From Promethearchaeota archaeon (GTDB lineage Archaea; Asgardarchaeota; Lokiarchaeia; Sigyniarchaeales; SOKP01), in NCBI GenBank assembly GCA_048938855.1, contig JBHLLT010000007.1, positions 34,063-98,062 on the forward strand: a stretch of 64,000 nt of DNA. Reading direction: 5' to 3'. The translations under genes and the position numbers were made by a program. The notes beneath the pieces were generated by a model. That model was given only the letters and a program-made list of their open reading frames with translations, did not search any database and was not told where the DNA came from. Positions 37,725 to 39,739 of this stretch are shown piece after piece (position 1 is the first letter of the stretch; the number at the start of each line of letters is the position of its first letter).

Positions 37725-37787
37725 AAACATTTAAATATATAAAATGTTTTTTATCGTATTTGAATATATATAATAATATTAATTTAA
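37725..37787 (+). promoter_or_regulatory. Conserved upstream element, copy 1 (promoter-like), before acidic micro-protein 1
   Basis: aaacatttaaatatataaaatgttttttatcgtatttgaatatatataataatattaatttaa aligns closely with 39448-39509 and contains a TTTAAATA TATA-like box. Confidence 0.7.
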
Positions 37788-37820
37788 TATCAAATAAATA
37801 AAAATAGAGAGAGAACATCT

Positions 37821-37940
37821 ATGGCAAACAAGAAAGATGAAGACGAAGATTATGATGATGAAGAAGAATGGGACGAGGATGATGAAGAAGATTGGGACGA
37901 GGATGATGAAGAAGATTGGGACGAGGATGATGAATATTAA
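37821..37940 (+). CDS. Acidic D/E/W-repeat micro-protein 1 (39 aa)
   Basis: Read manually (not in the ORF track): MANKKDEDEDYDDEEEWDEDDEEDWDEDDEEDWDEDDEY*. Built on a 24-nt tandem unit; GAGAGAG upstream. Confidence 0.75.
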   Translation: MANKKDEDEDYDDEEEWDEDDEEDWDEDDEEDWDEDDEY

Positions 37941-38041
37941 AGTTATACAAAATTAAGCACTATCATTCCAGATTCATCAACTAGGTAATTAAATATATTT
38001 TTTTTTCACAAATGTATTTTAAATAAAGTATTTAAAAGAAA

Positions 38042-38755
38042 TTGGGGCAAAATACAACAAAAATAATTATCTTAGGCATTAAATTAAATAATACAATGAA
38101 TAATCAAAATTATCTAGCGATTCTGATATTAATAGGGGGAACAAGTACTCGTTTTGGTATTGAAAAACCAGTTTTGGAGTATTACGGGAAACCATTAATT
38201 TTACACCAATTAGACATACTTTTAAAACTAGATTATGACATATATTTAGGTGCCCATTCCGAGGAACAAATATTTAATTATAGAAAGCAAATAGAATTTC
38301 CTAAAGAAGTTAACTTTATTGTAGATGATAGAGATATTTTTGAACATTCTAAAATATATAAGCCAATGCTCGGAATATATTCTGGGTTTAAAAAATTGAG
38401 TCAACTTGGTTTTGAAAAAGCTTTTCTATTGTCCTGTGATATGCCATTGATCAATCTAGAAGTATTAAACTTAGTGATTAATGAATCTAAAGGATTTGAT
38501 TGTTGTATACCAAAATGGAACAATGGTTTCTTAGAACTTTTTTTTGCAATATATCCAGTTGAAAAGGGATTTCAAAAGGCCAAAGAGATTCTTCTGACTG
38601 AAAATTATGGATTAATTAATTTCATTGATAAACATTGGAATATAAATTATATATCAGTAGAAAATTCAATTCAACAAGTGGATAAGAATTTATTGAGTTT
38701 AATAAATATCAATGGTCCAATTGATATTGTAAAAGTATTAAAACTTTACAAATAA
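38042..38755 (+). CDS. mobA: Molybdenum cofactor guanylyltransferase-like (MobA family)
   Basis: ILIGGTSTRFG.EK, PMLGIYSG, LSCDMP and NINGP.D. The start is probably ATG 38096. Confidence 0.8.
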   Translation: MGQNTTKIIILGIKLNNTMNNQNYLAILILIGGTSTRFGIEKPVLEYYGKPLILHQLDILLKLDYDIYLGAHSEEQIFNYRKQIEFPKEVNFIVDDRDIFEHSKIYKPMLGIYSGFKKLSQLGFEKAFLLSCDMPLINLEVLNLVINESKGFDCCIPKWNNGFLELFFAIYPVEKGFQKAKEILLTENYGLINFIDKHWNINYISVENSIQQVDKNLLSLININGPIDIVKVLKLYK

Positions 38756-38797
38756 ATCTATAAATATGAAATAGAAAATCCAAATTTTGGTGATTAA

Positions 38798-39208
38798 ATG
38801 AATGGAAATGAGTATAAATTTAGCATTTTAGAAGATAATAATATCAAAATAAAAGACAAATTTAAAAAAAAGGGAAAAGAATATGGAATTGCGAGACTAA
38901 GAATAAAACAGATTAATGCACTTGCTGAAACCCTTGATTTACAATCGGTAGCACCCTTAACTTCTCCTAAATTTAACTACAGAATAGAAACTTATTTACT
39001 TCCTAGGTTTGATGAAATAATCAGGATAATCTATTCATTAAAACCCATACCTGATGAGATAGGTATTGAGATTTCAAAAGAAAATGTAAATGATCTTCTC
39101 AAATCCCTTATTTTAGGTACTACTATTACAAAGTTAAAAGAGAGAGGTTATTCTGTCGAAGAATTAAATAAAGCGTTAAAAAATATCAATTTTCATAAAT
39201 ATAGGTAA
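38798..39208 (+). CDS. Hypothetical protein
   Basis: 136 aa with a GGTGA ribosome-binding site. Confidence 0.7.
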   Translation: MNGNEYKFSILEDNNIKIKDKFKKKGKEYGIARLRIKQINALAETLDLQSVAPLTSPKFNYRIETYLLPRFDEIIRIIYSLKPIPDEIGIEISKENVNDLLKSLILGTTITKLKERGYSVEELNKALKNINFHKYR

Positions 39209-39447
39209 TTTTTCTCTTATTTTAAAAAAATCCAAATTAAATTTAATCTTTATCTTAAGCAACTGTGTTTCTCTTAAATGTTTAACATTTTTAAAATATT
39301 TATAATTTTTTTTAAAATCAAGGAAATCTGTAATAGCTTTGTCAAACGAAGAAAATATTCCTTTACTTAACTATAATGTTTCAAATAGCTTGTAATTTTT
39401 ATAAATCTAGGTGTGAAATTTATTCGAATGGTTATTATAAAAACTAG

Positions 39448-39509
39448 AAATATTTAAATATAAAAAAAGTTTTTTTTCGAATTGAATATATACGGTAATT
39501 TTAATTTAA
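39448..39509 (+). promoter_or_regulatory. Conserved upstream element, copy 2, before acidic micro-protein 2
   Basis: aaatatttaaatataaaaaaagttttttttcgaattgaatatatacggtaattttaatttaa, matching 37725-37787. Confidence 0.7.
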
Positions 39510-39538
39510 AGTGAATAATAAATTAGGAGATAGGTAAT

Positions 39539-39739
39539 ATGGTTCCAAAAGATGACGATGAGGATTGGGATGATGAGGAAGAGGATGATGAGGACTACGA
39601 TGAGGATGAGGATGAAGACTGGGATGAGGATGAGGATGAAGACTGGGATGAGGATGACGATGAGGATGACGATGAGGATGACGATGAGGATTGGAGTGAT
39701 GATGATAATGATAACGATGGATATTTCGAAGAAGAATAA
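39539..39739 (+). CDS. Acidic D/E/W-repeat micro-protein 2 (66 aa)
   Basis: MVPKDDDEDWDDEEEDDEDYDEDEDEDWDEDEDEDWDEDDDED...GYFEEE. AGGAG/AGGT RBS; 24-nt and 12-nt tandem units. Confidence 0.8.
   Translation: MVPKDDDEDWDDEEEDDEDYDEDEDEDWDEDEDEDWDEDDDEDDDEDDDEDWSDDDNDNDGYFEEE

What the first reader, a model, noticed from the sequence alone, without database searches (positions are those of the whole stretch)
37725..39739. Two paralogous ultra-acidic, Trp-punctuated micro-proteins with a conserved upstream element
Seen: a 39-aa ORF (missed by the track) and a 66-aa ORF. Each has a short basic N-terminus followed by almost pure D/E with W or Y roughly every 8-10 residues (EEDWDEDD / EDEDWDED), encoded by 24-nt tandem units. 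Their ~60-nt upstream regions align closely even though the coding repeats use different codons and mobA plus another gene lie between them. This argues for real, co-regulated genes. Established: acidic-aromatic disordered motifs occur in Sem1/DSS1 (proteasome-lid chaperone and ubiquitin receptor), in the Arp2/3-binding acidic tail of WASP proteins (DDEW), in the LysW carrier terminus (EDWGE), and in nucleic-acid mimics and histone chaperones. Inference: an unannotated family of disordered polyanion effectors of unknown function. A Sem1-like role is attractive given the MPN and PAC2 genes in this genome, but is unproven.
Basis: partly seen in the sequence, partly recalled or inferred. Interest (0 to 1): 0.8.

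Follow-up and report, generated by a model that had tools for sequence, protein, structure and literature searches.

The report
Acidic tryptophan-studded archaeal microprotein genes
Two tiny genes for extremely acidic, tryptophan-dotted proteins in this Asgard archaeon are real and conserved, their shared upstream "element" is an ordinary promoter copied with the gene, and they most likely act as free-floating DNA/RNA look-alikes that shield basic proteins, which can be tested on a transcribed look-alike (TK1006) in the lab archaeon Thermococcus kodakarensis.

Summary
Both ORFs (39 and 66 aa) are real genes. Frame-intact copies occur in 40 of 54 genomes of the genus (1-3 each; a third lies on another contig here), under purifying selection (pN/pS 0.25-0.31), with conserved start, stop and T-tract. 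The upstream element is an archaeal core promoter (BRE-TATA-initiator) plus leader, duplicated with the gene; co-regulation is untested. Sem1/DSS1 membership fails (no Pfam match, no C-terminal helix). The closest tested precedents are the Trp-acidic tail of E. coli ObgE, which displaces DNA from YbiB, and the K-tract/acidic tail of Bacillus RNA polymerase delta, so the best reading is a stand-alone polyanionic nucleic-acid mimic or chaperone of basic proteins (about 50%); the partner is unknown. The scan found this family before on other Asgard DNA. New here: the basic partner proposed there was not found in 68 genomes of this family; no such gene was found in 24 other Lokiarchaeia genomes, the cultured ones included; and the same architecture stands alone in 24 of 30 Thermococcaceae loci read, including T. 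kodakarensis TK1006, which has a mapped start site and high read counts. Homology across these lineages is unproven.

The parts
37723..37763 (+). Core promoter of ORF1: purine-rich BRE (37723-37729), TATA box TTTAAATA (37730-37737), T-rich melted region, conserved box ending in the probable initiator TGA; start site predicted at about 37759-37762
   Evidence: TATA columns 92-97% conserved in 53 family upstream regions; position; spacing matches the mapped TK1006 start site 22 nt after its TATA box. Start site itself is inferred.
37764..37820 (+). About 57-nt leader with a purine-rich ribosome-binding-like site (37806-37813; GGAG or GAGGT in relatives)
   Evidence: alignment; start codon with SD-like site found in 44 of 59 members
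37821..37940 (+). ORF1, 39-aa acidic Trp/Tyr microprotein, 24-nt unit x3.4, ends in Tyr
   Evidence: syntenic intact counterparts directly upstream of the MobA-like gene in 29 genomes; pN/pS 0.245 and 0.305 in two alignable subgroups
37998..38006 (+). T9 tract, probable terminator of ORF1
   Evidence: T6 or longer within 100 nt downstream in 50 of 59 members, mostly at +57 to +76, against 36% for long ORFs of this genome
38096..38755 (+). MobA-like NTP transferase (neighbour, own TATA box at 38018-38025; start at the ATG used in relatives)
   Evidence: PF12804 E 2.8e-17; below NCBIfam MobA cut-offs; TATA position
38798..39208 (+). 136-aa orphan protein (neighbour; pI 9.5)
   Evidence: no Pfam, NCBIfam or Atlas hit; found in 17 of 36 genus genomes, 0 of 24 outside
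39446..39485 (+). Core promoter of ORF2: BRE, TATA box (39453-39460), probable initiator TGA (about 39482-39485)
39526..39529 (+). GGAG ribosome-binding site of ORF2
   Evidence: sequence; conserved in G007 and G035 counterparts
39539..39739 (+). ORF2, 66-aa acidic Trp/Tyr/Phe microprotein of the subtype with a C-terminal NDGY/DF motif
   Evidence: shorter in-frame counterparts in G007 (46 aa), G035, G006, G009
39816..39822 (+). T7 tract, probable terminator of ORF2
   Evidence: same position in G007

Best explanation
Each gene is a small stand-alone transcription unit (TATA promoter, short leader, ORF, T-tract) making a fully disordered polyanion of 25-70 residues. The Asp/Glu body mimics the phosphate backbone of DNA or RNA and is drawn into basic grooves; the repeated D-W-D/E units act as interchangeable aromatic anchors, so repeat number can change without loss of function; the short N-terminal Lys tract folds back on the acidic body and tunes it. 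The protein would thus compete nucleic acid off, or chaperone, basic nucleic-acid-binding proteins (chromatin proteins such as the Lys-tailed histone and the free Lys-rich tail peptide this genome encodes, or transcription/RNA-processing machinery). Shown: genes, selection, expression signals, distribution, transcription of the Thermococcus look-alike. Inferred: translation here, disorder-based binding, nucleic-acid mimicry. Unknown: the partner.
For: Composition of 59 cores: 73% D/E, 15% W/Y/F, 170 Trp, nearly all flanked by D/E; length varies by whole codons while W columns stay fixed; no fold (Atlas model pLDDT 0.26). The only PDB stretches returned for the family profile, both below significance and driven by composition, are the RNA polymerase delta tail (E 0.068) and the ObgE tail (E 6.9). 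The ObgE motif EDDEDWDDDWDEDD binds the basic groove of YbiB, needs its Trp residues and competes with DNA (PMC10123104). The delta tail is a Lys tract followed by a -47 polyanion that displaces nucleic acid from polymerase, restrained by the Lys tract (PMC7749165, PMC9674986). Where gene linkage is tight it is to polycations: a co-oriented Lys-rich micro-ORF within 300 nt in 14 of 15 cases in Asgard family f27, and a very basic orphan protein beside it in families f12 and f17. This genome encodes a Lys-tailed histone and a free 32-aa Lys/Ala/Pro peptide with the same BRE-TATA type. TK1006 has a primary start site and 2267-4202 raw reads in four of five libraries (PMC4247193 supplements).
Against: No RNA or protein evidence for these two ORFs. 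In this genus no polycation gene is linked (0 of 55) and the basic orphan was found in 0 of 68 genomes of the family, so no single partner explains all lineages. No stand-alone member was found in 24 Lokiarchaeia genomes of other families, although the complete 6.04-Mb genome G055 has Lys-tailed histones, so tailed histones do not need it. Trp-acidic tracts are common in bacteria and phages as tails and small ORFs, so the resemblance to ObgE and delta may be convergent and says little about the target.
Confidence: 0.5

Rival explanations
1. A dedicated prothymosin-alpha-like chaperone for the Lys-rich chromatin proteins (tailed histone, free tail peptide), or the anionic half of a coacervate-forming pair with them. 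This is a narrower form of the best explanation.
For: Acidic and Lys-rich micro-genes are adjacent and co-oriented in f27 (14 of 15) and in single Thorarchaeia-type loci L142 and L264; both families are widespread in this genome's family; neither stand-alone gene was found in the f2 genomes searched.
Against: Unlinked in this genus (0 of 55). G055 has tailed histones and no stand-alone member found. Thermococcales histones are untailed (own knowledge), yet the architecture is near-universal there. Prothymosin has no Trp (own knowledge).
Confidence: 0.2
2. A Sem1/DSS1-like adaptor of the ubiquitin-proteasome system, or a WASP-like acidic activator of actin nucleation.
For: Acidic stretches with Trp occur in both (own knowledge); seven JAB/MPN domains are encoded here, three in this window about 15 kb away; one member of 44 touches Myo1_CA at E 0.32, a chance-level score.
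Against: No DSS1_SEM1 match in 44 members or in the genome; no C-terminal helix or WH2/central helix; a single marginal PCI hit in a 1029-aa frame, no lid-like set; archaea have orthologues only of the ATPases and Rpn11 (PMC4453063); no MPN, ubiquitin or actin gene seen among recurrent neighbours; not found in the cultured Lokiarchaeia; present in Thermococcaceae.
Confidence: 0.08
3. A cation buffer or metal chaperone (Ca2+, Mg2+, Fe, or Mo/W-cofactor related through the neighbouring MobA-like gene).
For: Extreme carboxylate density; fixed position upstream of the MobA-like gene in 29 genomes.
Against: A T-tract and a separate TATA box split ORF1 from the MobA-like gene; paralogues and other lineages have other neighbours; no His or Cys; costly invariant Trp is unexplained by ion binding.
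Confidence: 0.12
4. Precursor or carrier peptide for the divergent methyltransferase/ATP-grasp fusion (35064-37046), in the manner of LysW or graspetides.
For: That gene lies about 800-1050 nt upstream, divergently, in 18 genomes; ATP-grasp ligases act on acidic peptides (own knowledge).
Against: Divergent and distant with an unconserved spacer; other paralogues and lineages lack the link; cores have almost no Ser/Thr/Lys for cross-links; no zinc-ribbon domain and no terminal EDWGE-type Glu; C-termini are mostly Tyr/Phe or Trp.
Confidence: 0.04
5. Neutral GAN microsatellites, or shadows of a hydrophobic antisense ORF.
For: Tandem units of 6-24 nt; one antisense frame is open in 54 of 59 cores.
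Against: pN/pS 0.245 and 0.305 with most change at third positions of the D/E frame; reversed-pattern controls near zero; promoter, SD and T-tract all point along the D/E frame; TK1006 start site is on that strand.
Confidence: 0.03

Closest known systems
C-terminal disordered domain of E. coli ObgE (YbiB-binding Trp-acidic motif; PMC10123104)
   Same: Nearly the same local motif: Trp set in runs of Asp/Glu, pseudo-palindromic, disordered; shown to bind a basic DNA-binding groove and displace DNA.
   Different: It is the tail of a GTPase with two Trp; ours are free proteins with 3-4 Trp units, their own promoter and an N-terminal Lys tract. No homology is implied (profile E 6.9).
C-terminal region of Bacillus RNA polymerase delta subunit (RpoE; PDB 6zfb; PMC7749165, PMC9674986)
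   Same: Lys tract followed by a long disordered polyanion (net -47 against -27 and -50 here) that competes with nucleic acid.
   Different: Tethered to polymerase by a folded N-terminal domain that ours lack; punctuated by Leu/Ile/Phe rather than Trp (own knowledge); profile E 0.068 only.
Thermococcus kodakarensis TK1006 and its Thermococcaceae counterparts
   Same: Stand-alone 37-71 aa ORF, Met-x-Pro-Lys-tract start, acidic body with W every few residues, aromatic end, own TATA and SD; transcribed.
   Different: Glu-rich rather than Asp-rich; different neighbours; annotated as a gene but I found no functional study; common descent cannot be shown by alignment of such sequences.
Sem1/DSS1 (Pfam PF05160)
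   Same: Small, disordered, very acidic, Trp/Phe/Tyr anchors, probably multi-partner.
   Different: No profile match, no C-terminal helix, variable repeat number, no PCI lid partners evident.
Prothymosin-alpha with linker histone H1 (own knowledge)
   Same: Free disordered polyanion; a Lys/Ala/Pro-rich polycation is encoded in the same genomes and is adjacent in another Asgard family.
   Different: Prothymosin is longer and lacks aromatic residues; no sequence relation; pairing not shown here.

Membership tests
Sem1/DSS1 | Match to Pfam DSS1_SEM1 (PF05160) | tested here: not met
   No match in either ORF, in 44 members at E up to 1 or in the genome
Sem1/DSS1 | C-terminal amphipathic helix after two acidic-aromatic binding sites | tested here: not met
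   C-termini are acidic and end in Y/F/W with no helix-forming segment
Sem1/DSS1 | PCI-domain partner complexes (lid, TREX-2) in the same cell | tested here: inconclusive
   One PCI hit just over cut-off in a 1029-aa frame, the rest below; controls also ring
Sem1/DSS1 | Binds ubiquitin or lid subunits | not testable with these tools
   needs biochemistry
RNA polymerase delta (RpoE) | Folded N-terminal winged-helix domain that anchors to polymerase | tested here: not met
   Whole proteins are 39 and 66 aa of low complexity; no Pfam or NCBIfam domain
RNA polymerase delta (RpoE) | Lys tract followed by long polyanionic disordered region | tested here: met
   KK in first 16 residues of 38 of 48 genus members and 23 of 24 Thermococcaceae members; weak in ORF2 itself
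ObgE-type Trp-acidic DNA-competing motif | Trp flanked by Asp/Glu runs in a disordered chain | tested here: met
   W-1 is D/E in 161 of 172 and W+1 in 168 of 172 cases
ObgE-type Trp-acidic DNA-competing motif | Trp-dependent binding to a basic groove with displacement of DNA | not testable with these tools
   needs ITC and gel-shift competition
LysW/ArgW carrier proteins | Zinc-ribbon domain and terminal EDWGE with C-terminal Glu, encoded with LysX | tested here: not met
   No Cys pairs; terminal residue mostly aromatic; no lys genes seen among recurrent neighbours
WASP-family VCA region | WH2 and central helix preceding the acidic Trp motif | tested here: not met
   No WH2 match in 44 members; N-terminal part is 3-15 residues
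Prothymosin-alpha / H1 pair | Ultra-high-affinity disordered complex with a Lys-rich partner | not testable with these tools
   A candidate partner exists but binding needs experiment
Asgard acidic peptide + basic orphan (ChrB_N/PaaX-like) module of earlier scan notes | Very basic orphan protein encoded beside the peptide | tested here: not met
   Not found in G000 with PF20229, one protein or a 9-sequence profile; 0 of 68 genomes of this family and 0 of 22 of f27, against 56 of 77 in f12 and 17 of 19 in f17

The most novel reading that the evidence does not exclude
These ORFs, their Thorarchaeia-type and f27 counterparts and Thermococcales TK1006 are one old, overlooked archaeal family of free Trp-anchored polyanions that strip or buffer basic proteins on DNA/RNA: the first stand-alone archaeal equivalent of prothymosin or of the polymerase delta tail, paired in Asgard archaea with histone-tail-like polycations.
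Probability: 0.25. Interest if true: 0.8.

Novelty: new variant of a known kind. Interest (0 to 1): 0.55.

Why it matters
Archaea have no described free acidic chaperone for histones or other basic nucleic-acid binders in the papers I could search, while Asgard histones are now known to carry modifiable Lys-rich tails (bioRxiv 10.64898/2026.07.02.735847). A conserved family of pure polyanion microproteins that gene callers and tryptic proteomics tend to miss is a concrete candidate. The practical gain from this follow-up is a test system: the cultured Lokiarchaeia appear to lack the gene, but T. kodakarensis, which has genetics, transcribes a look-alike (TK1006).

Tried and rejected
Expression in this organism: no RNA holder listed; laying four DNA contig sets gave only fragmentary, mixed-strain cover and was not used. 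Complex prediction of ORF1 with the genome's tailed histone dimer: no answer (score 0.02, mark 0.34), not counted either way. Atlas search of ORF2: only sub-0.9 hits to unnamed bacterial acidic proteins, a lead at most; of the 136-aa orphan: nothing. Exact look-ups did not find ORF1, ORF2 or most members in the 15-billion collection, but TK1006 is annotated in RefSeq and is missing too, so this does not show that the family is unannotated. Sigma-70 promoter and hairpin terminator scan: at chance level and not suited to archaea. Hidden conserved RNA in the 775-nt spacer upstream of ORF1: alignment of 19 spacers shows little conservation outside the promoter; not pursued with RNA models. pN/pS for the third subgroup (0.65) was discarded because the alignment included non-coding upstream bases. 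Many single pattern hits are tails of long proteins (ACS beta subunit, PCNA of f27), so raw pattern counts (49/54, 133/301, 71/71) overstate the family; only loci read are counted as members. A promoter tree groups ORF2 with G007 and G035 counterparts but is too weak for an order of duplications. Ten paper searches found no description of the family; TK1006 was not found in the supplements of PMC7613761, which may use other identifiers.

Full report
Observation. The window is contig C6 of a 3.95-Mb, 30% GC Asgard genome; its order holds complete genomes of 4,324,194 and 6,035,313 bp, which by my memory of genome sizes are the cultured Promethearchaeum syntrophicum MK-D1 and Lokiarchaeum ossiferum B35, so it is a Lokiarchaeia member of another family. 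ORF1 (37821-37940, 39 aa, net -27) and ORF2 (39539-39739, 66 aa, net -50) are as described. ORF1 holds 3.4 copies of a 24-nt unit; ORF2 is a looser array. Their upstream regions share 70 of 88 aligned columns, score 83 against at most 55 for 3333 other upstream regions.

They are genes. Reading the loci behind neighbour and pattern searches gave 59 distinct short, closed, in-frame ORFs in 40 of 54 genus genomes, one to three per genome. The cores are 73% Asp/Glu and 15% aromatic, with 170 Trp; 41 of 59 end in Tyr or Phe. Lengths differ by whole codons. In two subgroups that align without doubt, pN/pS is 0.245 and 0.305, most change is at third codon positions, and Trp columns are nearly fixed. 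This also excludes the open antisense frame as the coding one. A T-tract follows in 50 of 59, mostly 57-76 nt after the stop, against 36% for ordinary genes. ORF1's position directly upstream of the MobA-like gene is kept in 29 genomes; ORF2's position before the beta-CASP nuclease gene in a handful.

The upstream element. Across 53 members the conserved core is a purine-rich BRE, the TATA box TTTAAATA, a T-rich stretch, and TGA about 24 nt further on, then a leader of about 55-60 nt with GGAG or GAGGT. The same BRE-TATA word stands at 13 places in the genome, among them an Lsm-like gene, a Ski2-like helicase gene (both named from their sequence) and a Lys-rich micro-gene. A matrix of the whole element scores the two genes at 49 and 35 bits and the next site at 16; one weaker site marks a third paralogue on C60 (55 aa, Tyr/Phe-punctuated, ending in IYS). 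So the element is a strong core promoter duplicated with the gene, not an operator shared by a regulon. The box just before the start site could still be regulatory; co-regulation is untested.

Range. The DNA pattern for acidic-W-acidic hits 133 of 301 Asgard genomes with zero control hits. Loci read show stand-alone members in several other families, though some hits are tails of longer proteins. No stand-alone member was found in 24 Lokiarchaeia genomes outside this family, including the three single-contig genomes. Trp-acidic tracts are also common in bacteria and phages, mostly as tails but also as short ORFs, so the composition alone arises repeatedly. One lead proved firm: all 71 Thermococcaceae searched have the pattern, and 24 of 30 loci read hold a stand-alone ORF that starts Met-x-Pro-Lys-tract, continues as a Glu/Trp body, mostly ends in Trp, and has its own TATA box and SD. 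In the 2,088,737-bp genome the ORF lies at 878968-879183, exactly the record of T. kodakarensis TK1006, with a primary start site at 878940, 22 nt after its TATA box, and raw read counts of 2406, 3648, 2267, 4202 and 44 in five libraries, mostly far above the next genes TK1005 and TK1007 (PMC4247193 supplements 2 and 10; these libraries favour primary short transcripts). Family f27 peptides begin the same way (Pro then Lys tract), and ORF2 begins Met-Val-Pro-Lys. This suggests one family but cannot prove it.

Partners. Earlier notes of this scan tie the family to a very basic orphan protein and to a Lys-rich micro-gene. I tested both. A profile of nine basic orphans finds 56 of 77 genomes in f12 and 17 of 19 in f17, but 0 of 68 in this genome's family and 0 of 22 in f27, and only weak coiled-coil-level hits in five Thermococcaceae, so it is not an obligate partner. 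A co-oriented Lys-rich micro-ORF lies within 300 nt in 14 of 15 cases in f27 but 0 of 55 in this genus. This genome does encode such a peptide elsewhere (C73, 32 aa) and a histone with the same kind of tail. The lineages whose peptide lacks a Lys tract (f12, f17) are those with the basic orphan next door; with five lineages this is a hint only. Local neighbours here (MobA-like transferase, orphan, beta-CASP nuclease, TFB paralogue, methyltransferase/ATP-grasp fusion) shuffle among relatives and are separated from the ORFs by terminators and their own promoters.

Mechanism. A chain of variable length, made of interchangeable D-W-D/E units and no fold, must act through charge and repeated aromatic anchors. 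The two experimentally studied sequences most like it point the same way. The ObgE tail binds the basic groove of YbiB, needs its Trp residues and competes with DNA (PMC10123104). The delta tail, a Lys tract plus a -47 polyanion, displaces nucleic acid from RNA polymerase, and the Lys tract restrains it (PMC7749165, PMC9674986). Both surfaced in the PDB profile search only at non-significant, composition-driven scores: they are models of how it works, not relatives. I put a stand-alone nucleic-acid mimic or chaperone of basic proteins at about 50%, the narrower prothymosin-like pairing with Lys-rich chromatin proteins at 20%, metal buffering at 12%, a Sem1- or WASP-like role at 8%, a modified-peptide precursor at 4% and no function at 3%.

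Comparison and novelty. It fails the Sem1/DSS1, RpoE, LysW and VCA membership tests on domain features while sharing the working motif of ObgE and delta tails. I found no paper that describes the family. Polyanionic nucleic-acid mimics are a known kind; a free, Trp-periodic, 25-70 aa archaeal form with paralogue expansion is a new variant.

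Noticed in passing
G000:C60:26532-26699 (-), locus L127:5032-5199: Third paralogue (55 aa, Tyr/Phe instead of Trp, ends in IYS, a hydrophobic-Tyr-X-like end), divergent from a ribbon-helix-helix-like gene and upstream of two long coiled-coil genes; same arrangement in several relatives.
   Followed up: partly
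G000:C73:9530-9628 (-), locus L128:4031-4129: Stand-alone 32-aa Lys/Ala/Pro micro-gene resembling the tail of the genome's own histone, with BRE-TATA, SD and T-tract; 32-37 aa counterparts in many genomes of the family; further repeat units follow the stop codon.
   Followed up: partly
G000:C74:28-261 and C64 end: Lys-tailed histone gene (77 aa) at the overlap of two contig ends; four more histone-fold genes elsewhere.
   Followed up: partly
window 39985-42291 (+): 768-aa beta-CASP nuclease like aCPSF1 but far below its cut-off, with intact HxHxDH motif and two repeated N-terminal units that look like degenerate KH domains; possibly a paralogue of the termination factor.
   Followed up: no
window 35064-37046 (-): Class I methyltransferase fused to a D-Ala-D-Ala-ligase-like ATP-grasp domain in an archaeon; conserved divergently about 850 nt upstream of ORF1 counterparts.
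   Followed up: partly
window about 54460-57715 (-) (G000:C6:88522-91777): Three adjacent JAB/MPN-domain genes; seven in the genome.
   Followed up: no
G000:C34:32021-32221 (+), locus L129:3022-3222: 66-aa protein with two CxxC pairs and an acidic Tyr/Phe tail; a similar zinc-finger protein with a Trp-acidic tail occurs in G051 (L524).
   Followed up: no
L102, L103, L105, L110, L112, L114, L116 (Asgard family f27): PCNA carries a C-terminal Trp-acidic tail of the same composition, directly upstream of RFC genes.
   Followed up: no
L545-L574 (Thermococcaceae); T. kodakarensis TK1006 in L567:1363-1578: Near-universal stand-alone Pro-Lys-tract plus Glu/Trp microprotein, two copies in some genomes, absent from the large protein collection by exact look-up.
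   Followed up: yes
L220, L244, L314 (L220 and L244 labelled Chloroflexota): LysW-like zinc-ribbon proteins whose C-terminus is an extended Trp-acidic tract instead of EDWGE.
   Followed up: no
G000:C49:41348 (+): ARAGORN calls a tRNA-Sec; only 13 tRNAs were called in the genome with bacterial settings, probably because of introns.
   Followed up: no
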